A stretch of 30,662 bases of DNA. Origin: an uncultured Gammaproteobacteria bacterium. Its GTDB lineage: Bacteria; Patescibacteriota; Patescibacteriia; 2-12-FULL-60-25. The stretch spans positions 1 through 30,662 of the forward strand of contig CAYHOM010000002.1 of assembly GCA_964358345.1 (NCBI GenBank). Direction: 5' to 3'. A program made the translations under genes and the position numbers. A model generated the notes under the pieces. It saw only the letters and a list, made by a program, of their open reading frames with translations, was not told the origin of the DNA and made no database searches. Of this stretch, positions 14,055-29,105 are shown in pieces. Each line of letters begins with the position of its first letter. Position 1 is the first letter of the stretch.

Positions 14055-14101
14055 AGATGCACGGATGGTAACGGGTTCCCCCGTGATCGTCCAGGTGCCC
14101 C

Positions 14102-14419
14102 TTATCCCTTCGTATGACGGTCTTCTTCTCGTTTTTTATGGTCCGTTAACTCAACCCGCAGATGATCACGAACCTTGTCGATGGCTTTGTATAAATCCGC
14201 CTCCTCGCGCTCAAGGCGCATCGTCCCCCCATCAAAAGCCAACACGACTTTACAGGCGTAGATGTCCCCTTTGTGATGATGGCCAGAGGCCAATCCGACT
14301 TCAACGTCCATATGATGAAGACGATCCATATACTTATTCAATGTCTGCATCTTTTCCTCAACGTAGTCTTTAATCGCCTGCGTAAGCTCAAACCCACGGT
14401 GGGTAATGTTGATGGTCAT
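14102..14419 (-). CDS. hpf: Ribosome hibernation promoting factor / RaiA (short form), 105 aa
   Basis: [21 protein letters not shown]...[13 protein letters not shown]; conserved position directly upstream of secA. Confidence 0.9.
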
Positions 14420-14471
14420 AGGCTGAAAAAATAGCGAATGAGGTCACCTCTTTATGGTACCAGGCGCCCCC

Positions 14472-15458: not shown

Positions 15459-16867
15459 ACCGTAGAAAGAAGATCTGCCGCAATGGTGTAAATGTCGCCG
15501 GCACCCATGATCAGAATCACATCGCCTGCACGCATGATGCGTTGTACTCCATGACGCGCTTCCACAACCGTGCCCGCATATTCACGCAGACGCGTACACC
15601 CTCGATCGGCATCATGGCGTGTCAGGGCATCACACAGGTCATGGGAGGAAATGTCTCGATCCTCAACCTGTTCGCGTCCCGCGACATCATAAATCTCAAC
15701 CAAGATAACGGCATCCGCTTTATCGAAGGCCTGAATAAAATCAAGAAAAAAATGACGTGTCCGATGACGATGATGCGGCTGAAAACAAACAACGATACGG
15801 CGGCCGGGATAGGCCTGTTTGGCAGCTTCGATCGTTGCTACGACAGCCGTAGGATGATGGGCGTAGTCAGAGATGACGGTCATGCCATCACGCTCAGCCA
15901 CCTTCTCAAAACGACGCCAGATCCCTCTAAACCCAGCGAGCGTTTCCCGCAGAGCGTCATACGGTGCTTTCAAACGGCGTGCGGCAACACAGGCCGCCGT
16001 GGCATTCATCACATTCATTTTTCCAGGGATGGTGAGTCGTAAACGGGTGACGATGTGCTGTTCGTCACGCAGAGAAAATTGCCATCCTTCGACCGTAGGC
16101 ATCAAATCTTTCATCTGAACATCCGCATGACTTGCGCACCCAAAGGTCACAACATGGATATGGCGCGAAGCCAAGCGCGTGCGCTCCTGACCGATCAACG
16201 TACTCACCTGTGGATCATCCGCATTTGCCACCACCCATCCCCCATCGGGGATCTGACCCAGGAGGGATCGAAAGGCCTCAAGGATGTCAGCGACATTGGC
16301 AAAGACATCCGTATGGTCAAGCTCGATATTATTGATGACGACCCCGCGCGGATGAAAGGACAAAAAATGCCTCTCATATTCATCTCCTTCGATAAGGACA
16401 AGATCTGACTGACCAAATCGGACATTCCCATCTGGGAATTGTGGGACTTTACTGCCGACGATCACCGTCGGATCTAAGCCAGCTCGTTCGCAGAGAAGAC
16501 CAAGCATGGCTGTGGTGGTGCTCTTGCCATGCGTCCCTGTCACAAGAACGACTTCGCGACCCTGAAACCACTCTCCCAAAAATGCAAAATTTGTGTATTG
16601 CGGAAGGTTTCGCCGACGCGCCTCCGCCCGCTCGACATTGAGCTCAGGAACGGCCGAGGTATAAATAACGAGTTCCGTGATAGGAGGGAGGTTTGCAACA
16701 TCGTGACCAATGCTCACAGGGATGCCCACGTTCCGTAACTCTTCGGTCTGCGGTGACTTGGCAACATCTGATCCTGTGACGGATACGCCTGATCGGTGGA
16801 GCAGTTTTGCCACGGCGGACATTTGAATGCCACCAATGCCTATCAGATGAACATGCTGAAATGTCAT
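15455..16867 (-). CDS. murC: UDP-N-acetylmuramate--L-alanine ligase, 470 aa
   Basis: [55 protein letters not shown] and MGAGDI motifs; start at MTFQH (16867). Confidence 0.95.
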
Positions 16868-16955
16868 ACAAGAAAGAGATAATCTTAGCCTACGGTTTTC
16901 CCCACGTCTCGTCCAGCGTTTGACGCTGCCTTTCTCCTCCTCCATCATAGGAGCC

Positions 16956-18230
16956 ATGTCTCTTCTTTCTTCTCTCGATCCAGATGTCGCCCGTCTCATC
17001 CACAAAGAACTGGACCGACAGCGTCATGGACTCGAACTCATTGCCTCTGAGAATTACGTCTCACCAGCCGTGCTAGAGGCTGCAGGATCAGTGCTGACAA
17101 ATAAATATGCCGAAGGGTATCCTGGCAAACGCTACTACGGCGGCAATGAGGTGATCGACGAGACCGAATCTCTCGCCATAGGACGAGCGAAACAGTTGTT
17201 CAGCGCAGAACATGCCAACGTCCAATCACATGCAGGTGCACAGGCAAACTTCGCGGTATATCTCGCGCTATGCAAACCTGGCGATACCGTCCTCGCCATG
17301 AATCTTGCCCATGGCGGACATCTTACGCATGGTTCACCTGTGAATTTTAGCGGCAAGTGGTTTAACATCATTCCCTATGGCGTACGAGAATCAGACCATC
17401 TGGTCGACATGGATCAGGTACGTGCCCTTGCGCGCGAGCACAAACCACGCATGATCCTGGCCGGATTCTCTGCCTATCCCCGTAAGCTCGACTTTGCCGC
17501 TTTTGCGGATATCGCCAAAGAAGTTGGGGCGTATCTGTTTGTTGACATGGCACACGTGGCAGGACTCGTTGCTACCAAATTGTATCCCGATCCGATCCCG
17601 CACGCTGATGTAGTAACCAGCACCACCCATAAAACCTTACGTGGTCCACGCGGAGCCATGATTCTTTGCAAAACGGAGGATCGGCTTGATCCGGACGGAA
17701 AAAAAACCCTCGCACAAAAAATAGACAGCGCCGTATTCCCCGGCTCTCAAGGAGGACCCCTTGAACACATCATTGCCGCCAAAGCCGTTGCTTTTCACGA
17801 GGCTCTTCAGCCATCCTTTGTTCACTATCAAGAACAGGTTTTGAAAAACGCTCAAGCCATGGCAGAAGTTTTTTTAGCGGAAGGCGGACGGCTGGTTTCT
17901 GGAGGGACAGATAACCACCTTCTGCTCCTCGACGCGACCGCCTGGGGACCGAGCGGTAAAGAAGCCGAAGAATGGTTGGAAAAAGTCGGCATTTCAGCCA
18001 ACAGAAATATGATTCCCTTTGATCCTCGCAAACCCATGGACCCGTCTGGATTACGTGTCGGCACTCCCGCGATCACCACACGCGGCATGAAAGAAGAAGC
18101 CAGTAAACAGGTCGCACACTGCATCATAGACGTGCTGCGATCCAACCAGGACATAAGTACGATAGAGCGTATCCGCGGACGCATTCGTGAACTCACCGAT
18201 ACCCATCCACTTTACCCAGACTATGCCTAA
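16956..18230 (+). CDS. glyA: Serine hydroxymethyltransferase, 424 aa
   Basis: [39 protein letters not shown] (PLP Lys), GGTDNHL and [13 protein letters not shown] motifs; AGGAG just upstream of ATG 16956. Confidence 0.99.
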
Positions 18231-18894
18231 ACGGTGGAAGGACACGCTCACCTCTGCGGAGCAGAAGATTTTACGACGACTAGATTCACCGAAAAAAATT
18301 CAGGACTATCTAGATGCATTGCCCTTTAATTTTGAAGAAGGAGGCGAAACCTGCCTGTCTCCGCGTCGTGTGATGCGAGAACAGCGCGCCCACTGTATGG
18401 AAGGCGCTCTTTTCGCCGCTCTCGCGCGACGCATCCATGGTCACCCACCCGTCATTCTTGATCTCACCGCGACCTATCACGATGTCGACCATATCGTCAC
18501 CCCTTTTAAAGAAGCAGGGCGCTGGGGCGCAATATCCAAGACCAATCACAACGTATTACGCTACCGCGAACCGATCTATCGATCCATTCACGAACTCGTG
18601 CTCTCGTACTTTCATGAATATTTTGACGATCAAGGACGAAAGACATTGCGTTCATACACTTCCTGCATCGATTTGCGCCGTTTCGACAAGCAACAGTGGA
18701 TGACGGATGATCAGGATCTTTGGTATCTTGTGAAGGGTATTATTGATCTTCCTCATCAGGACATTCTAACGGATGCACAACGCCGCAACCTGCGAAAGGC
18801 TGACGGGGTCGAACGATATAGCTCCTCTTTTCCCGAATGGACAGCACAGGACAAACGTAATCCATGCATCAACCCTCCCTATGCTATTTTATGA
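18223..18894 (+). CDS. Conserved hypothetical protein, possible transglutaminase-like Cys enzyme, 223 aa
   Basis: [42 protein letters not shown] motifs; start overlaps the glyA stop by 8 bp. Confidence 0.6.
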
Positions 18895-19369
18895 AGAACA
18901 TTACGCAGAAAAAGAAAATTCTTTTCTGCTCATCCTCCTTTCCGTGATCATTCTGGCGGCAGTGGCTTGGAAAAGCCTCCTTCCCCTTCCCGCCATTCTG
19001 ACCATCATCCTCTTATGCCTCTTTGGTGGCATCATCTATTCTTTTCGGCTTGGGAGCGTTCGCATCACATCGGATCAGATCACCCTTTTAGGAGGGAAGA
19101 GTTTAACAACGATTCCTATCCAAACGATGACAACAGCGCAACTTGCCGAACGGAGGCAAAGACAGTTTTTCTTGCCCGGTACCATGCAACAGATCACAGG
19201 AGCTATTCGCATCGTTCCGCTCTGTCTTCCAACGTTGTTCTCCTTGACTCGCGGCGTCATGCTTACCCTCACAAACGGGACACAACTTTTTATTCCTAGT
19301 GGCCACGCGGAGGGGTGTCTGAAGGCGGTGGAGGACGCACGAAAAATACATACGACCTCTTTCAAATGA
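18881..19369 (+). CDS. Hypothetical membrane protein (2 TM plus PH-like cytoplasmic part), 162 aa
   Basis: Two N-terminal hydrophobic helices, then beta-rich SVRITSDQITL...GVMLTLTNGTQLFIPS; start overlaps the end of the previous gene. Confidence 0.55.
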   Translation: MLFYEEHYAEKENSFLLILLSVIILAAVAWKSLLPLPAILTIILLCLFGGIIYSFRLGSVRITSDQITLLGGKSLTTIPIQTMTTAQLAERRQRQFFLPGTMQQITGAIRIVPLCLPTLFSLTRGVMLTLTNGTQLFIPSGHAEGCLKAVEDARKIHTTSFK

Positions 19370-19480
19370 GCATTCAAAGGATATAGTGGCTCCCGTTAAA
19401 ATTTCCCATGTTTGATACCATGGTGAAAGAACTCACAGCAAGGACTCGTTTTTTTGTTGAAGAGATGGGTGAAGGACACG

Positions 19481-19786
19481 CTACAGAAGATCGATGCAAC
19501 GCACATACACAGTCCCCGTCGATGGAGTCGCCACTTCGTTATTGTAGTAAAAACTGCCCGCGGACCACGAGGCACCCTGGGGGCCCGTTGGACCAACTTC
19601 ACCTTACGATCCTTGTGGACCAACTGATCCTACCGTTCCCATAGGTCCGACAGGTCCCGCTGGACCCATAGGACCCGCCGGTCCAACCACATTCCACGTA
19701 AGCAATCGATCACTCCCACGACAATCATTCCGTCGAAATCCTTCCCCAACAAGCCATGAACGGAAGGGACGGAGCAGAGATCGCAA
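19481..19786 (-). pseudogene. Collagen triple-helix repeat protein remnant with in-frame TAA
   Basis: [69 protein letters not shown]...; the Gly-X-Y register continues across TAA 19606-19604. No signal-peptide N-terminus lies upstream in frame. Confidence 0.7.
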
Positions 19787-19800
19787 GGTATCGACCTGGA

Positions 19801-19832
19801 GGAAATGAAAATCCGACCGTCATGCGGTCGGA
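19801..19832 (-). terminator. Intrinsic terminator of the 55-aa small gene
   Basis: 8-bp stem 19812-19819/19825-19832 with a 5-nt loop, followed on the minus strand by TTTTCATTTCC; 10 nt after TAG 19843. Confidence 0.7.
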
Positions 19833-19842
19833 GTGGAGAGAG

Positions 19843-20010
19843 CTAGTTGCCGGCACCAGCGAGGACCGCGTTGATCTGCGCGAGGCATGCCTCACGCCGC
19901 ATCTCCGGATGGCGCTTGCACACCACCATCGGGTCGTACATGAAGGCCGCATATACGTATGCAGCAATCCCCAATACGCAGCAGATGGAACAGAATACAA
20001 ACCGGAGCAT
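19843..20010 (-). CDS. Small membrane peptide (55 aa), below the ORF-track cutoff
   Basis: GGGAGGTCACG-ATG; MLRFVFCSICCVLGIAAYVYAAFMYDPMVVCKRHPEMRREACLAQINAVLAGAGN*. It has a strong SD, an N-terminal hydrophobic helix and its own terminator. Confidence 0.6.
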   Translation of the reverse strand: MLRFVFCSICCVLGIAAYVYAAFMYDPMVVCKRHPEMRREACLAQINAVLAGAGN

Positions 20011-20243
20011 CGTGACCTCCCGTCCAAAAGGACGTACGTCGGCCGCTTATCTGCGGCCAGACGGGTATCCATAAGAACATGTAGAAAGGAAAAGATCAAG
20101 TTCGTGTATCCGAGTGTTATTGACCTTCGCATACATGAGCTTACTCCTGCCATTCTCGTGAATACGAGAATCCATCCGTCGTTCCGATGGTAGATAAGGT
20201 TTTTGATTGTGATATCCGCGCATTCGCGCCATACTTTCTAGGC

Positions 20244-20629
20244 ATGAATAAGCTATTTCAACATGTATTTGCCAAAATCCTGATTATTCCAGCGATTTTT
20301 TGCTTTGCTTTGTTGTCATCCTTTATTCGCACAAGCCGCAGAACCAATAGACGGACAAGCCCAGATTCAAGAAGAGACACCCGTCGCTCCGACTGGGTTA
20401 AGATCGAGTCGTGCCTGTCCTTATGACCACTTCTTCGACTGCTTTGGCCCTTGCCCCATTGTTTTGGGCGGCGTATGCGCCGGGTAAAGAGATGCTTCAC
20501 CCGTTGACGGTTGTGATTTTTGGAGGATTAGCTGTTTCGAACGTGATCTCCCTCTTCCTAATGCCTGCTGTGTTCTATCAGTTTTGGAAAAAGAAGACGG
20601 AGAGAGTGTCTGATTATGGAGCCTCTTAA
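20244..20629 (+). pseudogene. Remnant: signal-peptide-like N-terminus joined to the last two TM helices of a CusA/CzcA-type RND heavy-metal efflux pump
   Basis: 20402-20629 reads DRVVPVLMTTSSTALALAPLFWAAYAPGKEMLHPLTVVIFGGLAVSNVISLFLMPAVFYQF, matching the RND C-terminal R.L.P(I/V)LMT...G.E...PL..V..GGL pattern, with an in-frame TAA at 20399-20401. Upstream MNKLFQHVFAKILIIPAIFCFALLS/PLFAQAAEP needs a one-base shift. Confidence 0.7.
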
Positions 20630-20647
20630 TATAATGAATGTATAATT

Positions 20648-21382
20648 ATGCATCTCCAAAAAGTCATCGAGCGTTTAGGCTATAAGCCGAATGAAGTAAA
20701 GGTCTATCTCACCGCCTTACGCTTGGGCGAGTGTACATATTCTGACATTGCGGTTCAACTCCGGCTTCCTCGCACGAGTGTTCAGCTCATGGTCGATAAG
20801 TTGCACAAAGACGGGCTTATGAACTTTTATGTAAAGAGACGTTATCGTTACTGGATTGCAGAAAATCCGGAGAAATTCGTTATCGAATTACGTGAACGTG
20901 AAGCGGCACTACGGACGGTCATGCCAGAACTATCCGCGATGCGAAATCATGGCGGTGGCAAACCGACCGTCAAAACGTTTATCGGTGTCGATGAGATACG
21001 CTTGGTGCATGAAGATATTTTGGCGACGCAGCAACCGTTCGTAGGAATCGTCCCTTGGGACGAATGGGCGTCTTTCTTAGGGCAAGAGTACGTGAACAAT
21101 TTCATCGAGCGTCGGATCAAACGGTTCCTGAAAGTCCGACTCTTATTTCCCAAAACAAACGCCTCTGTACGATTGAAAGATCGAGACACGAAAGAACTGC
21201 GACAATCTCGTTTCCTTCCTGATCGTTTTACGATTGCAGATGCCATATTTCTTTATGGAAATAAAGTGGCGATTATCTGTCTAAACAAAAAACAACCGAC
21301 AGCCGTACTGATCGATGATCCAAGCATAAGGAGTACGATGACAGCCTTCTTTGAAGAGTTGTGGATTCAGAATAGAGAGTAA
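20648..21382 (+). CDS. TrmB-family transcriptional regulator (N-terminal wHTH plus PLD-like sensor domain), 244 aa
   Basis: LGYKPNEVKVYLTALRLG...IAVQLRLPRTSV...L..DGL HTH, AENPEK linker, VKTFIGVDEI, C-terminal FLYGNKVAII...AVLID...M.AFFEELW. Confidence 0.85.
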   Translation: MHLQKVIERLGYKPNEVKVYLTALRLGECTYSDIAVQLRLPRTSVQLMVDKLHKDGLMNFYVKRRYRYWIAENPEKFVIELREREAALRTVMPELSAMRNHGGGKPTVKTFIGVDEIRLVHEDILATQQPFVGIVPWDEWASFLGQEYVNNFIERRIKRFLKVRLLFPKTNASVRLKDRDTKELRQSRFLPDRFTIADAIFLYGNKVAIICLNKKQPTAVLIDDPSIRSTMTAFFEELWIQNRE

Positions 21383-21630
21383 ATATCCGATGAAGATTCA
21401 TTTTGACGACAACATTCCTGTTGCTGTTCTTTCCCTTTCTTATTTATTACAAGTGCTCATCGAGAGAGTGTATTTACCCTTTTAAATAGGACATATTTTG
21501 ATAAATCCCGTCACGAACGCTTTTGATTTTCTAGAGCTGTTTGACGAGCTTGGGCAAAATCCTTCCCCGTATTTTTTGAGGGGGTATAAAGAGTGTGTAG
21601 GGTACTTTTACCTATTTCACTTTAACCCAT

Positions 21631-22044
21631 ATGTCCCTCACCAAATACGGACCTTTCGTTAACCTCGACCGCTTCTTGGATGATGCATTTCTTACCCCAT
21701 CTCGTCGATATGGATGGGATATGGCTGTTGATGTGTTCGAGGCAAAAGATCAAGTAACGGTTAAAATGAGTTTACCGGGCATCAATCCGGATGAACTCAA
21801 CCTTTCGATTGAGGAAGACTTACTTTCCATTTCCGGTGAACGGCAAGAAGAGCACGAAGTGAATGACAAAGAGTATTACAGTAAAGAAATTAGACGAGGA
21901 TCATTTTCACGCGTTGTTGAGCTACCAACAGCGGTAGATGCGGCAAAAGCAGAGGCGAGTTATTCAGATGGTCTACTTTGTATCGCTTTGCCGAAGCTAC
22001 CTACCCAAGCAAGAAAGGGTGTAAAAATCTCTGTGAACAAATAA
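21631..22044 (+). CDS. Small heat-shock protein, Hsp20/alpha-crystallin family, 137 aa
   Basis: AVDVFE...VKMSLPGI..DEL.L.IEEDLLSISGER, EIRRGSFSRVVELP, EASYSDGLLCIALPK, C-terminal VKISV. Confidence 0.95.
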   Translation: MSLTKYGPFVNLDRFLDDAFLTPSRRYGWDMAVDVFEAKDQVTVKMSLPGINPDELNLSIEEDLLSISGERQEEHEVNDKEYYSKEIRRGSFSRVVELPTAVDAAKAEASYSDGLLCIALPKLPTQARKGVKISVNK

Positions 22045-22062
22045 CTTTTTGATGAATAATCT

Positions 22063-23223
22063 ATGATGAACAATAAACTCATCGTCATCGTCACAATGGT
22101 TGTCGCCGTTGTTGGGATTGGTATTTTCGTCTATGACGGATCCAGGAAATATGATGACATGCTCTCTCGTATGCAAGAGAAGGTGTATGTTGCTCTTGAG
22201 GGTTCTGGCGAAATAGCGGTGATAAACGCGATGACGAAGAACGTTGTGAGAAAGATTGATTTGTCTGAAATGAAAAATGGAAAGAGTGTCAATTACATGC
22301 CTCACAATGTTCAAGTCGCTCCAAATAACAAAAGTGTATGGGTTACAGCGGCTGCCACAGAAAAAAAGAGAAAGATGTCTTTTCAGATCATCCTGGCGGC
22401 TCATGCGGATGAGGGAGCTGTTCGTGAAACGGTGGATGCGGATGATCAAATCATCGTGATAGATCCATCCTCAGATAAGATCACAAAAAGAATTAATATC
22501 GGTCGAGGCCTTCGTCTTTCACATGTTGCGTTGACACCAGATGGTTTATTCGCGATTACGGCTTCACAAGAGAAGGGTGTTATCTATAAGATCAATGCAA
22601 TCAGTTTTGAAATGGAAAAGACCATTGATGCGCAAAAGGGAGCGGGGCCTCACGGCCTTCGTATTTCCCCCGACGGGAAAACAGCCTACATCGCGATGCT
22701 CGGGGGCAAAAGTATGGGCATCCTTGATATAGACAAGATGAATCTGGAATATATTCCCTTAAAAGGATCGGCGGTACAGACGGGGGTGACGCCTGATGGA
22801 AAATACGCGCTCGCTTCCATCTATGAAACAAAGAGTCTGGCGGTGTATGACATTGCTTCCGGAACGCTCCGATATGTTGATTTACCAAAAGAAGCGAAAG
22901 GTCCGGTTCAGATCTATCCGACATCTGACTCGCGCTTCGTCTTTGTTGCTGATCAGGGATATTACTTCAACCAGCCTACTAGTGATCTTGTTTACATGAT
23001 TGATTTAAAGGAGATGAGCGTCGTGCAAACGATCTCTGCAGGATCGGCACCTCACGGAGTCATCGTTTCTAAAGATGGAGCCCTTGTCTACGTGACAAAT
23101 CTTCTGAGCGACGACGTCTCGGTGATTGATATTAAAATGGGACGAGAAGTGAAGCGAATTAAGGTCGGAGATATGCCAAATGGAATCAGTATTTGGTCAG
23201 GGCCTACTGCGGGAGCTCCTTAA
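22063..23223 (+). CDS. Membrane-anchored YVTN/YncE-type beta-propeller protein, 386 aa
   Basis: N-terminal TM anchor; blade repeats PHNVQVAPNNKSVWVT, SHVALTPDG, GPHGLRISPDGKTAY, GVTPDGKYAL, APHGVIVSKDGALVYVTN. Confidence 0.85.
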   Translation: MMNNKLIVIVTMVVAVVGIGIFVYDGSRKYDDMLSRMQEKVYVALEGSGEIAVINAMTKNVVRKIDLSEMKNGKSVNYMPHNVQVAPNNKSVWVTAAATEKKRKMSFQIILAAHADEGAVRETVDADDQIIVIDPSSDKITKRINIGRGLRLSHVALTPDGLFAITASQEKGVIYKINAISFEMEKTIDAQKGAGPHGLRISPDGKTAYIAMLGGKSMGILDIDKMNLEYIPLKGSAVQTGVTPDGKYALASIYETKSLAVYDIASGTLRYVDLPKEAKGPVQIYPTSDSRFVFVADQGYYFNQPTSDLVYMIDLKEMSVVQTISAGSAPHGVIVSKDGALVYVTNLLSDDVSVIDIKMGREVKRIKVGDMPNGISIWSGPTAGAP

Positions 23224-23241
23224 CTCATTCTCACTAACCAT

Positions 23242-23463
23242 ATGACGAACGCCTTCAAAATCCTCTCCTTTGTTCTCCTTGCCGTGGGCATCGTCATTTT
23301 CTTCGTTGATCGTTCCAAATTGTTAGGCTTTCTTCCATTCCTCTTCATCCTCGCCTGTCCATTCATGCACCTCTTTATGCATAGCGGGTACAATCATGGT
23401 TCTGGAGGGGGCGATGGAAATGATGCAGGGGTGAAAAAGAAGAAGCACGGTGGGTGCCATTGA
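23242..23463 (+). CDS. DUF2933-like small membrane protein (copy 1), 73 aa
   Basis: LPFLFILACPFMHLFMH motif after two TM segments; C-terminal KHGGCH. Confidence 0.75.
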   Translation: MTNAFKILSFVLLAVGIVIFFVDRSKLLGFLPFLFILACPFMHLFMHSGYNHGSGGGDGNDAGVKKKKHGGCH

Positions 23464-23494
23464 AAGTATGATTACTTATTCTCTTGAGCACACT

Positions 23495-24202
23495 ATGAAA
23501 AATATCTTCCTCATCCTATTCATCTTTTTCAGCTTCTTGATTGGTGTTTCCGCCACAAGTGCTCAGATGATGGGCAACGTAAATAACGTTCGAGTCAACT
23601 GGAACGAGGTGCAAGAACATACCCTGCGTGAAGAGCAAGAAGGCAAGGAGCTTTGGAACAAACTGCAGGCCAAAGAAGCGACGTGTACAGATCTCAAAGA
23701 TGAACAATTCGGTGTCCTGGGTGAGTACTATATGGGGCAGATGATGGGAGCGTCTCATGCCTCCATGAATGCCATGATGATGCAAATGCATGGAGAAGAT
23801 GGGGAAGAGCAGATCCATATTGCCATGGGAAAACGCTTGTCTGGCTGTGATCCAAATGCCGCACTTCCTACACAAGGCTTTGGATGGATGCCAATGCTAC
23901 AGATGATGGGAGGCCTAGGATCATCTTCTCAATCGTTTAATCAGCCTAACGCGACATATATGCCAATGATGTGGGGCTTCGGCCCAGGTGGGTATGGGTT
24001 TGGTGGAATGGGGTCAGTCTTCATGATCTTTTGGTGGATCTTGATCATTGCGGTCATCGTCTTGATTGCCAGATGGTTTATGGGTCAATCTCATGGGATG
24101 GGACATCGCAATAGCTCTGCCCTCGATCTTCTGAAGGAGCGCTACGCCAAAGGTGAAATTGACAAGAAAGAGTTTGAGGAGAAGAAGAAAGACCTTACTT
24201 AA
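23495..24202 (+). CDS. Secreted Met/His-rich domain plus TM plus SHOCT protein, 235 aa
   Basis: Signal peptide MKNIFLILF...ATSA-QMM; EYYMGQMMGASHASMNAMMMQMHGEDGEEQIHIAMGKRLSGC; TM; C-terminal ALDLLKERYAKGEIDKKEFEEKKKDL (SHOCT). Confidence 0.8.
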   Translation: MKNIFLILFIFFSFLIGVSATSAQMMGNVNNVRVNWNEVQEHTLREEQEGKELWNKLQAKEATCTDLKDEQFGVLGEYYMGQMMGASHASMNAMMMQMHGEDGEEQIHIAMGKRLSGCDPNAALPTQGFGWMPMLQMMGGLGSSSQSFNQPNATYMPMMWGFGPGGYGFGGMGSVFMIFWWILIIAVIVLIARWFMGQSHGMGHRNSSALDLLKERYAKGEIDKKEFEEKKKDLT

Positions 24203-24205
24203 CCT

Positions 24206-24532
24206 ATGAAACTCGGCATCATTTTGCAGTCCAACAACCCGGAGCATGTCTGGAACACCTTTCGTTTGGGCATCGCTTCTCTCAAGGCGAGCCACGCGGT
24301 ACAAGTAGTTCTTTTCAACGAAGGGGTTGAAATCGAAGATATCCAAGACACGCCCCAATTCGATCTCTCCAAGAAACTTCAAGAGTTTACAACCCTGAAG
24401 GGAATGATTTTCGCTTGCACCACCTGTCTCAAAGTCCGTTCAAAATCGGAAAGCAAGGTCTGCCCGACTGGCACCATGGACGATTTGGTAAAGATGGTTG
24501 AGGTATCGGATAAGGTGTTGGTATTTGGATGA
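24206..24532 (+). CDS. DsrE/DsrF-like family protein, 108 aa
   Basis: VVLFNEGVE, IFACTTCLKVR (CxxC), CPTGTMDDLVKMVEVSDKVLVF. Confidence 0.85.
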   Translation: MKLGIILQSNNPEHVWNTFRLGIASLKASHAVQVVLFNEGVEIEDIQDTPQFDLSKKLQEFTTLKGMIFACTTCLKVRSKSESKVCPTGTMDDLVKMVEVSDKVLVFG

Positions 24533-24569
24533 GATGATCTTTAAATTTGTCTACTTAATACTCACATAT

Positions 24570-24833
24570 ATGAACAATACATCCTGCTGTAACCATGCAA
24601 GTAACGATGAAGAAAAACCATCTTGTTGCGCTCATGCAGAAAACTCGTCTTGTTGCAGTAACAAGAGCTTGATGGCAAGTGGAGCCATTGATCCAGTTTG
24701 CGGCATGGAGCTTGATCCATCCGAAACAAAACTCACGGCTGAGTACAAAGGCAAAACGTACTATTTCTGCAATATCGCCTGTAAAGACAGCTTCGTCAGT
24801 GACCCTCAGAAATATCTTGATAAAACCAACTAG
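24570..24833 (+). CDS. YHS/TRASH metal-binding domain protein with Cys-pair-rich N-terminus, 87 aa
   Basis: IDPVCGMELD...EYKGKTYYFCNIACKDSF..DPQKY; N-terminal SCCNH, SCCAH and SCCSN repeats. Confidence 0.85.
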   Translation: MNNTSCCNHASNDEEKPSCCAHAENSSCCSNKSLMASGAIDPVCGMELDPSETKLTAEYKGKTYYFCNIACKDSFVSDPQKYLDKTN

Positions 24834-24857
24834 TAATTCTCATTTGGTGAAAACGAT

Positions 24858-25127
24858 ATGGACAAACTTTCATTCTCATCCTACGTCAAGAAGTGTGTAC
24901 TTGGAACAGAAATCGCCTATGTAGTCTGTCTCATTGGGGGCTATCTCCCATTCCGATCGACGAGGGGCACAGAATTGCATCATGCGCTTTTTGAGACGTT
25001 ACCGGGATTTACCTGGGGCAGTTTTAGCAGCGTCATCTGGGGAGCGATTCTGTTAGCTCTCGTAGCCATTATCGTGGGTTCTTACATGGTATGGATGTAT
25101 AATTCCAGCCTTGAAGGAACGCATTAA
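24858..25127 (+). CDS. Small membrane protein, DUF5676-like, 89 aa
   Basis: AYVVCL...LHHALFETLPGFTW...G...MYN pattern; two to three hydrophobic segments. The family label is from recall and is uncertain. Confidence 0.5.
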   Translation: MDKLSFSSYVKKCVLGTEIAYVVCLIGGYLPFRSTRGTELHHALFETLPGFTWGSFSSVIWGAILLALVAIIVGSYMVWMYNSSLEGTH

Positions 25128-25136
25128 TTTTTCTCT

Positions 25137-25352
25137 ATGAAAAATTCCACCATTCGTTGGGTGCTCGGCATCCTGGTTGCTGTGGCTGGTGTGTATCTCG
25201 TTACAGATCATGGTCAGCATCTTGCTCCCTATCTTCCGTTTACGTTTCTCTTGGGCTGCCTCGTTATACACCTTCTCATGCAGGGAGGTCATGGGGGTCA
25301 TCATGATGATGTTTCGCGCGATGAGGGTAATCATGGCAAACCTAAAACATAG
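25137..25352 (+). CDS. DUF2933-like small membrane protein (copy 2), 71 aa
   Basis: HGQHLAPYLPFTFLLGCLVIHLLMQGGHGGHH, a variant of the DUF2933 C-P-L-M-H-x-F-M-HGGHG motif. Confidence 0.7.
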   Translation: MKNSTIRWVLGILVAVAGVYLVTDHGQHLAPYLPFTFLLGCLVIHLLMQGGHGGHHDDVSRDEGNHGKPKT

Positions 25353-25355
25353 GAT

Positions 25356-26003
25356 ATGTCCTCCTCCGCCTACGGCCTGTGGCCTCTTGTTATCATCAAC
25401 TCTTTGGTTTTTCTGATCTTTGCCTTTAGCTTTGTAAAACCTAAGACTTCTCGTGATTGGCGATCATTCGGGGCATTCTCAGCCTTCATTGTTGCTTTGT
25501 TCACCGAAATGTATGGGTTCCCTCTTACGATTTACCTTTTTTCAGGCTGGCTTTCAACGAAATTTCCTGAGATTGATTTCTTGTCACATAATTCAGGGCA
25601 TTTGTTTGAAGATTTCTTCGGTTGGGGCGGCGATCCTCACTTTGGCCCGTTCCATATTGCAAGTTACATTCTGATCATCCTTGGGTTCTCACTGCTCGCG
25701 AATGCTTGGAAAATTCTTCATGCGGCGCAGCAGAAGCATGCTCTGGCGACGACCGGCATTTACGCACGCATTCGTCATCCTCAGTATGTCGGCTTTATCA
25801 TCGTCATGCTCGGATTTCTTTTGCAGTGGCCAACGCTTCTTACGCTCATCATGTTCCCGATACTCGTGTTCATGTACGTGCGGCTTGCTCGAAGCGAAGA
25901 ACGAGAGGCGCGAAAGGAGTTTGGCAAGCAATGGGAAGCGTACGCAGCCAAGGTCCCAGCCTTCATTCCCCATTGGAAGCCCCCGGTTACAGCCATCGAT
26001 TAA
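25356..26003 (+). CDS. Isoprenylcysteine carboxyl methyltransferase (ICMT/PEMT)-like membrane methyltransferase, 215 aa
   Basis: LATTGIYARIRHPQYVGF...EEREARKEFG..WEAY...VPAFIP C-terminal SAM-binding signature; N-terminal YGLWPLV..NS...RDWRSFGAFSAFIVALFTEMYGFPLTIY. Confidence 0.85.
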   Translation: MSSSAYGLWPLVIINSLVFLIFAFSFVKPKTSRDWRSFGAFSAFIVALFTEMYGFPLTIYLFSGWLSTKFPEIDFLSHNSGHLFEDFFGWGGDPHFGPFHIASYILIILGFSLLANAWKILHAAQQKHALATTGIYARIRHPQYVGFIIVMLGFLLQWPTLLTLIMFPILVFMYVRLARSEEREARKEFGKQWEAYAAKVPAFIPHWKPPVTAID

Positions 26004-26025
26004 CGATCTGTAACGTATAATATTT

Positions 26026-26463
26026 ATGTCAGCAATCATGACAAAAACTATCGGTTACGGTACAGGAGCGGCTTTCCTATTGCTGGCGTTCTATTTCGTT
26101 ATTCTAACGCTTGTATCCGGTTGGGGGTTTGCTCAGAGTCAGTTTAGCGACTATTGGTACTTTATCGTGAGTCTAGCCATAGGTTTTGGCATCCAAATAT
26201 TCTTGTACCAATACATCAAACGGATGGTTCATAGTGGGCAAGGAATGGGAAAGGTGGTTGGCGTGTCTGGCACAACATCTACGGCTGCGATGATCTCTTG
26301 TTGTGCGCACTACCTGGTGAACTTATTACCGATTCTTGGGGTAACGGGCCTGACGACTCTTGTCGCACAATATCAGGTAAGGCTATTTTGGGTGGGGATT
26401 GTATTTAACGCTGCGGGCATCGTCTATATGGCAAACAGAGCTCTTAAACTCCCTCGCTTATGA
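26026..26463 (+). CDS. Hypothetical 4-TM membrane protein with SCCAH motif, 145 aa
   Basis: Four hydrophobic segments; STAAMISCCAHYLVNLLPILG; ATGA overlap with the next gene. Confidence 0.7.
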   Translation: MSAIMTKTIGYGTGAAFLLLAFYFVILTLVSGWGFAQSQFSDYWYFIVSLAIGFGIQIFLYQYIKRMVHSGQGMGKVVGVSGTTSTAAMISCCAHYLVNLLPILGVTGLTTLVAQYQVRLFWVGIVFNAAGIVYMANRALKLPRL

Positions 26464-26897
26464 AATACACTCGATTTATCCTCATAGGTCTAATCGTCGT
26501 TGTTTCTGTGCTCTTTGTCATGACTCGGAATAAGCAAGATCCCAGTCCACAACAGCAGGTCAATGAAAGCCGCTTTGAGACACAATCTGATGAACAGGGG
26601 CAGGTCTCTATCAAAGTGACTCCGCAGGTATCAAACGGTGCGCAGTGGAAATTTAATATCGTATTCGATACCCATTCAGTCGACCTCAATCACGATCTTC
26701 TCCAAATAGCCGTGTTAGCTGATGACCAAGGGAATATCTATAAACCAACTTTATGGGAGGGTCCAGGGCCCGGCGGTCATCATCGTGAAGGAGTTTTGAT
26801 ATTTGAGTCGATCAGCTCAACCACGTCTTTTGTGGAATTACGCATAAAAAACGTTGCTGGAGTACCCGAACGCTTATTCAAGTGGCGTATCAAATAA
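26460..26897 (+). CDS. Membrane-anchored hypothetical protein with THSVDL and GGHH motifs, 145 aa
   Basis: N-terminal anchor; beta-rich FNIVFDTHSVDL...WEGPGPGGHHREGVLIF. Confidence 0.7.
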   Translation: MKYTRFILIGLIVVVSVLFVMTRNKQDPSPQQQVNESRFETQSDEQGQVSIKVTPQVSNGAQWKFNIVFDTHSVDLNHDLLQIAVLADDQGNIYKPTLWEGPGPGGHHREGVLIFESISSTTSFVELRIKNVAGVPERLFKWRIK

Positions 26898-26902
26898 CGC
26901 AT

Positions 26903-27403
26903 ATGAAACCATCTTTACTTATACGCCATCCTTATTTCGTGGCTTTTTCCATACAAATCATCCTCGTATACGAATGGATCTCTGTGGGCTTAGGCAAGAT
27001 TTATGGAGGGCAGTTCGTATCGAATATAGGAAAAACGTTTAGCCGTTTTGAGAATGGCAATCCCCATGAGTGGTATGTCGGCTCCGTATTACATCTCGCA
27101 AAAAGCTTCCCTGAACTTTTCGGACGGCTTGTTCAATGGGGCGAGCTGCTGGTAGGGATCGGGCTCGTTGTCGCCCTGCTTACGTACGGACTCAGTACGC
27201 AGCCGCAATGGAAGAATCCGGCACGGTACGCAGCCATCCTTTCCCTTCTCGGAGGAGTGTTCATGAATGCAAATTTCTACTACGCTGCCGGATGGACAAG
27301 TCCGAGCACGGAGGGGTTAAACATGGCTATGTTTTGGATGCAAGTTGTGCTTATCCTGTTTTGGGTCAAACCTTGGGAGGAGAGACGTCCGTATCCAAGA
27401 TAA
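26903..27403 (+). CDS. DoxX/TQO small subunit DoxD-like membrane protein, 166 aa
   Basis: YEWISVGLGKI, NPHEWY, LVQWGELLVGIGL, NANFYYAAG pattern over four TM segments. Confidence 0.65.
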   Translation: MKPSLLIRHPYFVAFSIQIILVYEWISVGLGKIYGGQFVSNIGKTFSRFENGNPHEWYVGSVLHLAKSFPELFGRLVQWGELLVGIGLVVALLTYGLSTQPQWKNPARYAAILSLLGGVFMNANFYYAAGWTSPSTEGLNMAMFWMQVVLILFWVKPWEERRPYPR

Positions 27404-27459
27404 AAAGCTTGGTTACTTCACGGTAACCAGATTTCCTATTACACATGAATGATCTAGAT

Positions 27460-29058
27460 ATGAAAAAAATCTTCGGGCTCTCCCTTATCGTTATCTTCGC
27501 TATTCTCGGAGGGGTATTCGTTTATCGTAACTCGAACGCTCCGTCGATCAACCAAGGGAGCAATAACCCAATGGTTCCAGCCGTTGTCGAAACAACTTCT
27601 ACACAGGTTCAAGCTGTCATTGATCTGAAGGATGGTGATGCATACACGTTTAGGCTCCAAGCGGTAAAGAAGACGATTGCCGGACGCGAAGTGGACGCTC
27701 TTACCTACAGTGGTACCGTTCCCGGTCCAACGATTCGTGTCCCACAAGGAGCTACGATTCATCTCACGCTTAAGAACGATCTTGACCGTGAGACGACCCT
27801 CCATCCTCACGGAGTCCGGGTTGAAAACGCCTCTGATGGAGTGCCAAATGTGACGCAGAAGCCTATTCGTCCAGGTGAGTCATTCACGTATACCTTGCGT
27901 TTTCCTGACGCGGGCGTCTTCTGGTATCACCCGCACCTTGATGAAGTGATGCAGCAGAACCTTGGCTTATACGGTAATTTTCTGGTTGCTCCAACTTCAA
28001 CAAGCTACTGGTCGCCTGTGAACCGTGAAGAGACGTTGGTGCTTCAAGATATGCTCTTTAACGAAAACAAGATCGCCACGTTCAATGACGGTCGTTCTTC
28101 CTATTATGGCATGATGGGTCGCTACGGCAATGTTCTGCATACGAATGGCAAGACCGACTATCGTCTTGAAGCGAAGAAGGGGGAAATCGTGCGTTTTTTC
28201 ATCACCAACGTTGCCAACGCTCGCCCGTTCCGTTTGGCTATTCCTGGAGCGAAGATGAAACTTGTCGGTGGCGACAACGGGAAATATGAACAGGAAACAT
28301 TTGTGGATAGCGTGACCGTCTCGCCGTCTGAACGCGCCATTATAGAGGTTTCATTCGATACCGTAGGGGCGTTTACCATTGTGAATGGTACACCTGTTCG
28401 AGTCTCTACAATGGGAACGGTTCACGTGTCTGATGATTCAATCAGAGTTTCTTACTTGGAGGCGTTTAACCAATTACGTACCAATCAAGATGTCATCACC
28501 TCAATCGATCCTCTGCGTCCACTCTTCTCGAAACAGCCGGATAAGACTCTGGATCTCGGATTCAATATGATGGGGAACGGTGGGATGATGGGTGGAACCG
28601 GAATGATGGGACGTGGCATGATGGATGGAGGCATGATGGGATCATCAGTTGAGTCGAACGACGGGATCGAATGGGAGGATCACATGGGAAGTATGAATGC
28701 CCATATGACAGCAGCTACGGCCGGGTGGACAATTACAGACAAAGCAACAGGAAAAACGAACGACAAGATTAATTGGTCGTTCAAACAAGGCGACTACGTC
28801 AAAATTCGGATCAACAATCCAAACACGGGGATGCATCCCATGCAACATCCGTTTCATGTTCATGGTCAGCGCTTCTTAGTTCTAAGCGAGAACGGAAAAG
28901 CGAACACGAATATGGTTTGGAAGGATACGGTTTTGCTACCTGCTGGTACTACCACCGATATTCTGGTCGAGATGTCGAATCCTGGGCAATGGATGATGCA
29001 CTGTCATATCGCAGAACATCTAGAGAGTGGGATGATGCTGAATTTCGAGGTGAAGTAA
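27460..29058 (+). CDS. Membrane-anchored three-domain multicopper oxidase (CueO/CopA/laccase-like) with Met-rich loop
   Basis: All four Cu motifs: TLHPHG, FWYHPH, MQHPFHVHG, WMMHCHIAEHLESGMM (axial Met). Met/Gly loop MMGNGGMMGGTGMMGRGMMDGGMMG; N-terminal TM anchor. Alternative start at 27445. Confidence 0.95.
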   Translation: MKKIFGLSLIVIFAILGGVFVYRNSNAPSINQGSNNPMVPAVVETTSTQVQAVIDLKDGDAYTFRLQAVKKTIAGREVDALTYSGTVPGPTIRVPQGATIHLTLKNDLDRETTLHPHGVRVENASDGVPNVTQKPIRPGESFTYTLRFPDAGVFWYHPHLDEVMQQNLGLYGNFLVAPTSTSYWSPVNREETLVLQDMLFNENKIATFNDGRSSYYGMMGRYGNVLHTNGKTDYRLEAKKGEIVRFFITNVANARPFRLAIPGAKMKLVGGDNGKYEQETFVDSVTVSPSERAIIEVSFDTVGAFTIVNGTPVRVSTMGTVHVSDDSIRVSYLEAFNQLRTNQDVITSIDPLRPLFSKQPDKTLDLGFNMMGNGGMMGGTGMMGRGMMDGGMMGSSVESNDGIEWEDHMGSMNAHMTAATAGWTITDKATGKTNDKINWSFKQGDYVKIRINNPNTGMHPMQHPFHVHGQRFLVLSENGKANTNMVWKDTVLLPAGTTTDILVEMSNPGQWMMHCHIAEHLESGMMLNFEVK

Positions 29059-29073
29059 ACCTTTTTGGCAAAA

Positions 29074-29105
29074 GAAAAACCACCCTCTTACGATGGTGGT
29101 TTTTC
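29074..29105. terminator. Probably bidirectional intrinsic terminator ending the copper operon
   Basis: 11-bp stem GAAAAACCACC (29074-29084) / GGTGGTTTTTC (29095-29105), A-rich before and T-rich after; lies between convergent genes. Confidence 0.75.

What the first reader, a model, noticed from the sequence alone, without database searches (positions are those of the whole stretch)
21631..29058. Thirteen-gene, membrane-tethered copper/thiol-stress operon made mostly of uncharacterised proteins
Seen: 13 co-oriented genes with gaps of -4 to about 56 bp and one terminator at the end. Nearly all carry Cys-pair, His or Met clusters, and four (beta-propeller, SHOCT, THSVDL protein, MCO) have N-terminal anchors or signals. 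Established: multicopper oxidases with Met-rich loops oxidise Cu(I) (CueO-type), and YHS domains occur on Cu-ATPases. Inference: an integrated surface complex that captures Cu(I) on Met/His sites, oxidises it with the MCO and handles thiol damage (DsrE, DoxD-like, Hsp20). It would suit an ultrasmall cell without a classical periplasm. I know of no characterised system with this combined gene set, which makes it the best candidate for an undescribed system here.
Basis: partly seen in the sequence, partly recalled or inferred. Interest (0 to 1): 0.75.

Follow-up and report, generated by a model that had tools for sequence, protein, structure and literature searches.

The report
Pump-less copper-stress island in a groundwater Patescibacterium
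This is a real 13-gene operon on a horizontally acquired copper-handling island of an ultra-small groundwater bacterium; it is built from modules that recur beside copper pumps in four phyla, this copy has lost its pumps, and its least understood part is a widespread, unnamed pair of membrane proteins.

Summary
Thirteen co-oriented, tightly packed genes (21631-29058) end at one bidirectional terminator. All 13 have homologues or family hits.

The theme is copper: a CueO-like oxidase with all four copper motifs and a Met-rich insert, a Cys-rich YHS protein, two DUF2933 genes, a CzcN-like ICMT methyltransferase, and a Met-rich SHOCT protein. However, this is not a new integrated 13-protein system.

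It is a low-GC 8.4-kb transferable block running from a TrmB-family regulator to the oxidase. The whole order recurs only in near relatives. Subsets recur beside P1B copper ATPases in Patescibacteria, Chloroflexota, Burkholderiales and Actinomycetota.

This copy has no pump. A DoxX-like gene sits exactly where relatives carry a CPD-type ATPase, and only a 60-residue relic of an RND pump remains upstream. A csoR-copA...RND locus lies on another contig.

The notable part is the pair g10 (a 4-TM protein with an invariant intramembrane CCxH) and g11 (an anchored Ig-like domain with invariant His). The two are adjacent in 56 of 80 loci and fused in 45 of 150 family representatives. g10 is also fused to HMA or YHS/HMBD domains. 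Databases call both proteins hypothetical.

This scan has flagged similar Patescibacteria copper islands, and this pair, on other genomes before.

The parts
20187..20629 (+). Relic of a metal-efflux operon. The N-terminal piece resembles a 133-aa protein of contig C3. It is followed by the last ~60 residues of an RND (AcrB-family) pump.
   Evidence: Pfam ACR_tran E 1.8e-10, model positions 965-1019 of 1021. The genome search PF00873 hit at C2:20396-20581 with 1 stop. tblastx to C3 18149-18286 and 24412-24603.
20648..21382 (+). TrmB-family HTH regulator (244 aa) and first gene of the conserved transferable block. It has no TRASH or Cys-rich sensor domain.
   Evidence: Pfam TrmB E 2.5e-8. Only 2 Cys. 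91% identical in L003/L004, and the DNA similarity to L004 begins at 20647.
21383..21630 (+). Intergenic region of 248 bp, presumed to hold the promoter or operator. It has conserved blocks, including a TATAAA-containing stretch.
   Evidence: Alignment with L003/L004. No inverted repeat was found. Function is inferred.
21631..22044 (+). g1: small heat-shock protein (Hsp20/alpha-crystallin).
   Evidence: Pfam HSP20 E 2.5e-20. Found in this context only in L003/L004.
22063..23223 (+). g2: N-terminally anchored YncE/YVTN-type 7-bladed beta-propeller, with His conserved in several blades.
   Evidence: Pfam YNCE E 6.6e-15; NCBIfam beta_rpt_yvtn. TM segment 1-28. Conserved PHN, PHG and HG motifs in 9 homologues. 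Relatives lie in copper loci L026, L029, L039, L007, L032 and L033.
23242..23463 (+). g3: DUF2933 small membrane protein with a His/Cys tail (HGGCH).
   Evidence: Pfam DUF2933 E 3.8e-12; sequence.
23450..24202 (+). g4: exported Met-rich domain (25 Met, 10%), then a TM helix and a cytoplasmic SHOCT domain. The start is probably the ATG at 23495.
   Evidence: Pfam SHOCT E 1.4e-7. Composition and TM segments. Relatives L003/L004 carry only a 77-aa SHOCT protein here.
24206..24532 (+). g5: small DsrE/DsrF-like protein with 3 Cys.
   Evidence: Pfam DsrE E 1.9e-5, 25.3 bits against a cut-off of 22.7. Found in one other locus only, L038, again next to a SHOCT gene.
24534..24833 (+). g6: cytoplasmic Cys-rich protein (three CC motifs) with a YHS/TRASH-type metal-binding domain.
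   Evidence: Pfam YHS E 7.4e-16. 65% identical to the 95-aa orthologue in L004, which sets the start. Conserved DPVCgM...YyFCs..C.
24858..25127 (+). g7: 89-aa 2-TM protein with two conserved Cys, an LHH motif and a WMHNsS motif. It is weakly DUF5676-like.
   Evidence: 22 homologues aligned. Present in 20 of 31 Patescibacteria loci. Pfam DUF5676 E 0.016, below cut-off.
25137..25352 (+). g8: DUF2933 small membrane protein with a His-rich tail.
   Evidence: Pfam DUF2933 E 9.5e-15.
25356..26003 (+). g9: ICMT/PEMT-type integral-membrane methyltransferase (CzcN-like, 215 aa). It forms the known DUF2933-ICMT module with g8.
   Evidence: Pfam PEMT 6.5e-9 and ICMT 7.7e-9. NCBIfam isopcys_mtase 1.8e-11, below cut-off. 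PMC8478169; PMC7563307.
26026..26463 (+). g10: unnamed 4-TM protein, N-in/C-in, with an invariant intramembrane C92-C93-x-H95.
   Evidence: No Pfam or NCBIfam hit. Alignment A2 gives the invariant residues. Positive-inside counts. The family has 1085 representatives, with fusions to g11, HMA and YHS/HMBD. AF2 pLDDT 73, no PDB match.
26460..26897 (+). g11: unnamed N-terminally anchored Ig-like beta-sandwich. Invariant T71-H72-S73, W99 and G105, and invariant H107-H108-R109-E110-G111.
   Evidence: Alignment A1. AF2 pLDDT 84.9. Foldseek gives only generic Ig-like hits. Weak DUF5643 likeness. No PDB sequence match. Overlaps g10 by 4 nt.
26882..27403 (+). g12: DoxX-like membrane protein. It occupies exactly the place of the HMBD/CPD-type P1B ATPase of relatives.
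   Evidence: Atlas first hit 'putative DoxX family' at 0.95. Pfam DoxX only E 0.24. Replacement boundaries at 26912 and 27459 against L004/L009.
27409..27430 (+). Hairpin after g12, terminator-like with a weak T tail.
27445..29058 (+). g13: three-domain multicopper oxidase, CueO-like, with an N-terminal anchor or Sec signal and a Met-rich insert.
   Evidence: Pfam Cu-oxidase_3/-/2. NCBIfam CueO 178 bits against a cut-off of 525. Motifs HPHG120, WYHPH160, HPFHVH468 and HCHIAEHLESGM519, plus 13 Met in residues 362-421. No TatC in the genome.
29070..29105 (.). Bidirectional intrinsic terminator that closes the operon and the convergent gene.

Best explanation
The region is a horizontally acquired copper (Cu/Ag) stress island, 8.4 kb from 20647 to 29059, in a ~1-Mb groundwater Patescibacterium. 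It consists of a TrmB-family regulator gene and a 13-gene operon. The operon is a mosaic of modules that recur beside P1B copper ATPases in many lineages.

This copy is pump-less. A DoxX-like gene replaces the ATPase and the upstream RND pump is reduced to a relic. Export therefore presumably depends on the csoR-copA...RND locus on contig C3. What the island adds is handling on and in the membrane.

Proposed roles of the parts (all inferred):
- g6, the Cys-rich YHS protein, buffers cytoplasmic Cu(I).
- g10 takes Cu(I) at its cytoplasmic face and holds it on the intramembrane CCxH site. It hands it to the His site of the anchored Ig-like g11 outside.
- g4 (Met-rich), the His-tailed DUF2933 proteins and perhaps the g2 propeller bind Cu at the surface.
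- g13, the Sec-exported, membrane-anchored CueO-like oxidase, is metallated outside the cell and oxidises Cu(I) to Cu(II).
- g9 (ICMT-like) and the Hsp20, DsrE-like and DoxX-like genes are accessory stress functions of unknown chemistry.

Shown: gene identities, block boundaries, pump loss, synteny and domain fusions. Inferred: metal specificity, direction of transfer, regulation by TrmB and co-transcription.
For: Gene identities.

Transferable block:
- DNA similarity to L004 (76-81%) starts at the TrmB start and stops at the oxidase stop, with unrelated flanks.
- GC is 0.465 against a genome value of 0.511, the 2.5th percentile.
- g11 was found in 1 of 36 other same-family genomes.
- g10 was found in 21 of 400 other sampled Patescibacteria.

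Pump loss:
- L003/L004/L009 carry an HMBD-CPD P1B ATPase between g11 and the oxidase. The window has g12 there.
- An RND relic lies upstream.
- The pumps on C3 are intact.

Recurrence: in 31 Patescibacteria-type loci, g10 is adjacent to g11 in 29. An ATPase lies within 3.5 kb in 23, g7 occurs in 20, ICMT in 11, YHS in 9 and MCO in 8. The same families occur in Burkholderiales (for example L046: MCO, SHOCT, g11, g10, DUF2933, ICMT, YHS, ATPase) and in cultured Lentzea.

The g10-g11 unit:
- 45 of the top 150 family representatives are g10-g11 fusions.
- N-terminal HMA or YHS/HMBD fusions exist.
- The N-in/C-in topology fits both kinds of fusion.
- CCxH and the His residues are invariant.

Other: the DUF2933-ICMT module beside copA is copper-induced in Alteromonas (PMC8478169). 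Exact short contigs of g2, g5, g12 and g13 occur in an aquifer metatranscriptome library.
Against: - There is no experimental link to copper for this organism or for g10/g11.
- The TrmB regulator has no recognisable metal-sensing domain, so copper induction is unproven.
- The ESMFold2-based complex prediction for g10+g11 scored 0.00, which is uninformative.
- The g11 fold matches only generic Ig-like domains, not CopC, PCuAC or YcnI.
- Hsp20, DsrE-like and DoxX-like genes are barely co-conserved with the rest.
- The RNA evidence is four low-depth contigs that could be DNA carry-over.
- HMA, YHS and ICMT (CzcN) also occur in Zn/Cd/Co/Hg systems.
- Loss of both pumps could mean that the island is decaying.
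Confidence: 0.62

Rival explanations
1. One reading: the 13 products form one integrated, previously undescribed surface system. It captures Cu(I) on Met/His sites, oxidises it and repairs thiol damage.
For: Tight spacing and one terminator. Four anchored exported proteins. The whole order is conserved in L003/L004.
Against: The set breaks into independently assorting modules across 80 loci. Near relatives lack g3, g5 and g12 and carry a pump instead. The thiol-repair components are not co-conserved. No interaction evidence exists.
Confidence: 0.12
2. Cuproenzyme-maturation cluster. Its main job is to deliver copper across the membrane to metallate the Sec-exported oxidase in a Tat-less cell. 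The oxidase's real substrate could be Fe(II), Mn(II) or phenolics, so the cluster would not be for copper tolerance.
For: No TatC in a 96%-complete genome, and no twin-arginine motif on the oxidase. g10-g11 has the layout of an inside-to-outside relay. Maturation of the Rhodobacter oxidase CutO depends on CopA efflux and CutF (PMC8456105, abstract seen).
Against: g10-g11 travels with ATPases (23 of 31 Patescibacteria-type loci) far more often than with an oxidase (8 of 31). The Met-rich insert is the hallmark of Cu(I)-oxidising CueO-type enzymes. Buffering proteins (YHS, DUF2933, Met-rich g4) fit detoxification better.
Confidence: 0.15
3. Same architecture but another metal (Ag, Hg, Zn/Cd/Co), or a general soft-metal or thiol-stress response.
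For: HMA, YHS, HMBD and CzcN-type ICMT are not copper-specific (PMC7563307). The regulator is not a known copper sensor.
Against: The oxidase has full copper sites and a Met-rich insert. Neighbours in relatives are CsoR and cupredoxins. The DUF2933-ICMT module is copper-induced in Alteromonas.
Confidence: 0.07
4. Decaying cargo. After loss of both pumps the remaining genes are no longer useful and are merely not yet eroded.
For: RND relic. ATPase replaced. Patchy distribution.
Against: All 13 frames are intact, with every invariant residue of g10, g11 and the oxidase kept. Possible transcripts exist. The same sequence is held by groundwater runs from several studies.
Confidence: 0.04

Closest known systems
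Cue system of E. coli (CopA P1B ATPase + CueO multicopper oxidase)
   Same: A CueO-like three-domain oxidase with four copper motifs and a Met-rich insert. Relatives of the island pair it with a P1B ATPase.
   Different: No ATPase in this operon and no MerR-type CueR. The oxidase is Sec-type or anchored, not Tat-exported. NCBIfam CueO scores 178 bits, below the 525 cut-off.
merR-copA-cupredoxin-DUF2933-ICMT genomic-island cluster of Alteromonas and other Gammaproteobacteria (PMC8478169); CzcN/NccN of Cupriavidus (PMC7563307)
   Same: A DUF2933 gene immediately followed by an ICMT-type membrane methyltransferase (g8-g9, 3-nt gap) in a metal island.
   Different: Here there is no copA, cupredoxin or MerR in the operon, and the module is one of several.
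CsoR-regulated cop operons of Gram-positives and the copper islands of other Patescibacteria
   Same: The same accessory families (YHS, SHOCT, DUF2933, g7-like, g10-g11, DoxX) surround a P1B ATPase. The window's own genome has such a csoR-copA locus on C3.
   Different: This island has a TrmB-family regulator instead of CsoR, and it has no pump.
Archaeal copR-copT-copA clusters (HTH regulator with TRASH domain, TRASH metallochaperone, ATPase; e.g. PMC7830388)
   Same: An HTH regulator gene upstream, with a small TRASH/YHS-type metal-binding protein in the operon.
   Different: The regulator here lacks the TRASH sensor domain, and there is no ATPase.
Membrane copper-relay pairs such as CopC-CopD/YcnJ-YcnI or FixH beside the FixI ATPase (recalled from general knowledge, not tested by sequence)
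   Same: A polytopic membrane protein plus an anchored beta-sandwich ectodomain, encoded beside a copper transporter.
   Different: No sequence or fold match to CopC, CopD, YcnI, PCuAC or FixH appeared. g10 has 4 TM helices with CCxH, and g11 has a THS...GGHHREG signature.

Membership tests
CueO-type multicopper oxidase | Three cupredoxin domains with the four copper-ligand motifs (HxHG, HxH, HxxHxH, HCHxxxHxxxxM) | tested here: met
   Pfam Cu-oxidase_3, Cu-oxidase and Cu-oxidase_2. Motifs at residues 120, 160, 468 and 519.
CueO-type multicopper oxidase | Met-rich insert near the T1 site | tested here: met
   13 Met in residues 362-421. Its position relative to T1 was not modelled.
CueO-type multicopper oxidase | Tat export (twin-arginine signal) | tested here: not met
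   No RR motif in the N-terminus and no TatC in the genome. NCBIfam CueO equivalog scores below cut-off.
CueO-type multicopper oxidase | Cu(I) oxidase activity | not testable with these tools
   Needs an enzyme assay.
Copper efflux operon (cop/cue/cus type) | Contains a P1B ATPase or an RND pump | tested here: not met
   No ATPase between g11 and g13. Only a 60-residue RND relic remains. The pumps are on contig C3.
YHS/TRASH metal-binding domain (g6) | Pfam YHS above cut-off, with conserved Cys ligands | tested here: met
   58.3 bits against a cut-off of 30.3. DPVCgM...YyFCs..C is conserved in 20 homologues.
DUF2933-ICMT module (CzcN-like) | A DUF2933 gene directly upstream of an ICMT/PEMT membrane methyltransferase in a metal island | tested here: met
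   g8 DUF2933 54.9 bits; g9 PEMT 36.6 bits and ICMT 36.3 bits, both above cut-off; 3-nt gap. Literature.
Archaeal CopR-type copper regulator | HTH domain plus a C-terminal TRASH metal-sensing domain | tested here: not met
   Only a TrmB HTH hit. Two Cys in 244 residues and no TRASH motif.
DoxX/DoxD (g12) | Pfam DoxX or DoxD above cut-off | tested here: not met
   DoxX E 0.24, 12.5 bits against a cut-off of 23.6. Only Atlas feature likeness of 0.95 to a 'putative DoxX' cluster.
DsrE/DsrF-like (g5) | Pfam DsrE above cut-off | tested here: met
   25.3 bits against a cut-off of 22.7, full length. The score is marginal and no function follows from it.
Hsp20 (g1) | Alpha-crystallin domain | tested here: met
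   72.9 bits against a cut-off of 20.8.
DsbD/CcdA-type thiol-disulfide transporters (considered for g10) | Sequence or profile similarity to the DsbD TM domain | tested here: not met
No Pfam hit.
CopC / PCuAC / YcnI / FixH-type copper-binding ectodomains (considered for g11) | Sequence or fold match | tested here: not met
   No Pfam hit apart from sub-threshold DUF5643. No PDB sequence hit. The top 50 Foldseek hits are generic Ig-like folds.

The most novel reading that the evidence does not exclude
g10 and g11 form a previously uncharacterised, ATP-independent transmembrane copper relay. Cytoplasmic Cu(I) is taken from HMA/YHS-type donors, here the separate YHS protein g6. It passes through an intramembrane CCxH site to a tri-His site on an anchored Ig-like ectodomain. 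There it is handed to surface acceptors such as the Sec-exported oxidase. On this reading a pump-less island can still move or deliver copper in a Tat-less, periplasm-less cell.
Probability: 0.3. Interest if true: 0.75.

Novelty: new variant of a known kind. Interest (0 to 1): 0.45.

Why it matters
Copper islands are a well-known kind of system, so the operon as a whole is not a new system.

Two things are worth keeping. First, this copy shows that the accessory genes are retained intact after both pumps are lost. That argues they do something on their own. Second, the g10-g11 pair is a large family with at least 1085 clusters at 50% identity, spread over four phyla and with no Pfam model. Its domain fusions (HMA, YHS/HMBD, g11) and its neighbourhood point clearly to copper.

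The pair also occurs in cultured Lentzea, Saccharothrix and Ramlibacter, so its function can be tested genetically. It may explain how Sec-exported cuproenzymes are loaded, or how copper is disposed of, in cells without Tat or a periplasm.

Tried and rejected
- Complex prediction on g10+g11 scored 0.00. This gives no support and no evidence against.
- The PDB sequence search with the g11 profile found nothing relevant.
- Foldseek for g10 found no hit with E below 2. For g11 it found only generic Ig-like folds.
- The idea that g10 is a DsbD/CcdA-type protein was rejected by hhalign.
- The idea that the TrmB regulator is an archaeal CopR-type sensor was rejected, because it has no TRASH domain.
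- A search for an operator palindrome in 21383-21640 found none.
- tblastn of g10 (the window's copy and a Burkholderiales copy) against 72,556 plasmids found no match.
- g12 as a remnant of the ATPase was rejected, because there is no similarity.
- Literature searches for Patescibacteria/CPR copper islands found only passing mentions of copA.
I could not measure whether H72, H107 and H108 of g11 cluster in space.

Full report
OBSERVATION

The window is the whole of contig C2 of a 1.0-Mb, 139-contig, 96%-complete genome. Record titles of relatives place it in Patescibacteria/CPR, and its sequence is held by groundwater and aquifer runs.

Between 21631 and 29058 there are 13 plus-strand ORFs. 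The gaps are 18, 18, -14, 3, -35 (+1 with the orthologue's start at 24534), 24, 9, 3, 22, -4, -16 and 41 nt. A stable hairpin flanked by A/T runs at 29070-29105 ends both this operon and the convergent gene. N-terminal hydrophobic segments are present on g2, g4, g11 and g13. The description is therefore correct.

WHAT THE GENES ARE

- g1: Hsp20.
- g2: anchored YncE/YVTN-type beta-propeller.
- g3 and g8: DUF2933.
- g4: exported Met-rich domain (25 Met), then a TM helix and SHOCT.
- g5: marginal DsrE-like protein.
- g6: three CC motifs plus a YHS domain.
- g7: an 89-aa 2-TM protein with conserved Cys and His, weakly DUF5676-like.
- g10 and g11: no family.
- g12: only weakly DoxX-like.
- g13: three-domain multicopper oxidase with all four copper motifs and 13 Met in residues 362-421.

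These assignments rest. The oxidase has no twin-arginine motif and the genome has no TatC. It is therefore presumably Sec-exported and metallated outside the cell. Upstream, 20648-21382 encodes a TrmB-family HTH protein without any TRASH or Cys-rich sensor domain.

A TRANSFERABLE BLOCK THAT HAS LOST ITS PUMPS

Metagenomic contigs L003/L004 share 76-81% DNA identity with the window, exactly from the TrmB start (20647) to the oxidase stop (29059). Their flanks are unrelated and have no homologues in this genome. The block has GC 0.465 against a genome value of 0.511, which is the 2.5th percentile of 7.5-kb windows. g11 was found in 1 of 36 other genomes of the same family. g10 was found in 21 of 400 other sampled genomes of the phylum, scattered over many families.

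The order in L004 is TrmB, Hsp20, propeller, SHOCT (77 aa), YHS, g7, DUF2933, ICMT, g10, g11, a P1B ATPase with HMBD, and the oxidase. That ATPase carries a CPD motif in the transport site. In the window, g3+g4+g5 stand where L004 has the short SHOCT gene. g12 and a hairpin stand exactly where L004 and L009 have the ATPase.

Just upstream of TrmB, 20187-20629 holds a collapsed relic. It consists of an N-terminal piece like a 133-aa protein of contig C3, followed by the last ~60 residues of an RND pump.

Contig C3 carries the intact pumps. The locus there reads CsoR, a CPC/HMA CopA, an HMA-DsbD_2 protein, a cupredoxin-like protein, a YtkA-like protein, a HlyD-like adaptor and an RND pump. The finding is thus a pump-less accessory copy of a copper island.

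IS THE SET CO-CONSERVED?

I fetched 80 loci from species-representative genomes that encode a g11 relative and annotated them by tblastn with the window's proteins. I grouped the loci myself, by record title and similarity. A few MAG titles, such as 'uncultured Gammaproteobacteria' for L009 and L011, conflict with their gene content.

In the 31 Patescibacteria-type loci:
- g10 is adjacent to g11 in 29.
- A P1B ATPase lies within 3.5 kb in 23.
- g7 occurs in 20, ICMT in 11, YHS in 9, the oxidase in 8, SHOCT in 5, DUF2933 in 4 and the propeller in 3.
- DsrE-like and the g12 type each occur in 1.
- TrmB and Hsp20 occur in none.

A ~1-Mb genome has one or two such ATPases. The chance of finding one in a given 7-kb stretch is therefore about 1%, by my own arithmetic.

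The same families co-occur elsewhere. Burkholderiales locus L046 carries the oxidase, SHOCT, g11, g10, DUF2933, ICMT, YHS and the ATPase on one strand. Chloroflexota and Actinomycetota also carry them, including cultured Lentzea and Saccharothrix.

The island is therefore a mosaic. It has a stable core (g10-g11 with a pump, plus g7 in Patescibacteria) and freely assorting accessories. The full 13-gene order is a property of one shallow lineage.

THE UNNAMED PAIR

The g10 family keeps several invariant positions: W44, GFG-x-Q (53-57), S85, M89, C92-C93-x-H95, P102 and N128. Lys and Arg counts across 30 members put the N-terminus, the second loop and the C-terminus inside the cell. The CCxH site therefore lies mid-membrane in the third helix.

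A profile search of 1.84 billion representatives found 1085 family members. Only the best 150 are listed. Among those 150:
- 45 also carry a g11 domain C-terminally (E from 2e-10 to 2.5e-49).
- At least 10 have an N-terminal MxCxxC/HMA domain.
- At least 7 have an N-terminal YHS-like domain.

I confirmed nine of these by Pfam, some with HMBD as well. Three Chloroflexota loci hold HMA-g10 fusions.

g11 keeps several invariant positions: T71-H72-S73, W99, G105 and H107-H108-R109-E110-G111. It is anchored by a TM helix, or in 3 of 30 members by a lipobox. Its AF2 model (pLDDT 84.9) is an eight-strand Ig-like sandwich whose solved relatives are only generic. The g10 model (pLDDT 73) has no solved relative.

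GenBank/RefSeq and UniRef call the homologues in Lentzea, Ramlibacter and Saccharothrix hypothetical or uncharacterised, apart from one UniRef entry for the Lentzea g11 homologue labelled 'DUF4352 domain-containing'.

MECHANISM

The mechanism is inferred. The fusions put cytoplasmic copper-binding domains on g10's inner end and g11 on its outer end. Together with the intramembrane CCxH, which is reminiscent of the CPx site of P1B pumps, this suggests an inside-to-outside copper relay or conduit.

In this pump-less copy the relay could feed the anchored oxidase and the surface Met/His binders (g4, the DUF2933 tails, perhaps the His-bearing propeller). g6 would buffer Cu(I) inside the cell.

The roles of the ICMT-like enzyme, Hsp20, DsrE-like and DoxX-like proteins remain unknown. 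The 'thiol damage' reading rests on names only.

Transcription in situ is hinted at by four exact short contigs (in g2, g5, g12 and g13) in an aquifer metatranscriptome library. Depth is 2-3 and DNA carry-over cannot be excluded.

COMPARISON AND NOVELTY

The closest described systems are:
- CopA/CueO of E. coli.
- CsoR-regulated cop operons.
- The merR-copA-cupredoxin-DUF2933-ICMT island of Alteromonas, which is copper-induced (PMC8478169).
- CzcN as a membrane ICMT in Cupriavidus (PMC7563307).

The window's island differs from these in three ways. It has a TrmB-type regulator, it has no pump, and it carries the unnamed pair. I found no paper in the searchable library that describes Patescibacteria copper islands beyond noting copA.

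This scan, however, has met look-alikes of g10 in 42 other windows. It has already reported Patescibacteria copper operons with 'an unnamed pair of membrane proteins', and a 'pump lost' island. My results agree with those notes and add the fusion evidence.

VERDICT

The region is a lineage-specific, pump-less variant of a known kind of island. It contains one family pair that is genuinely uncharacterised, widespread and testable.

Noticed in passing
window 20187-20629: A collapsed relic directly upstream of the TrmB gene. The ORF start resembles the 133-aa protein of contig C3 (C3 18149-18286). It is followed by the last ~60 residues of an RND pump (58% identical to the C3 RND C-terminus).
   Followed up: partly
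window 20116-20190; G000 C11 3517-3591; G000 C54 4367-4443: A 75-nt element is repeated on two other contigs (93% and 87% identity). It is also present in a chimeric contig of the aquifer RNA library X9. It could be a small mobile or structured element, and the C54 copy lies near a TrmB paralogue.
   Followed up: no
G000 contig C3, about 14100-24600 (L093, L094): The genome's pump-bearing copper locus, all on one strand. Gene order: CsoR, CPC/HMA CopA, HMA-DsbD_2 fusion, cupredoxin-like protein, 133-aa protein, YtkA-like protein, HlyD-like adaptor, RND pump.
   Followed up: partly
L004 7301-7476 versus window 25761-25936: In the near relative L004 the ICMT gene is broken by a 176-bp inversion, leaving a 155-aa product. 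It is intact in the window and in L009.
   Followed up: no
window 24546-24765: One contig of groundwater run X3 skips 218 nt inside g6, the Cys-rich YHS gene. This is a strain variant that would truncate or frameshift it.
   Followed up: no
L004 8444-10675: The island's ATPase in relatives has an N-terminal HMBD (CPMHPE...CPNCGM) and a CPD motif instead of CPC/CPH in the transport helix.
   Followed up: partly
window 22063-23223: The best NCBIfam hit of the propeller g2 is the 'clade III lactonase-type nitrous-oxide reductase' model (87.6 bits, far below the 700 cut-off). His is conserved in several blades, so a metal site in the propeller is conceivable but untested.
   Followed up: partly
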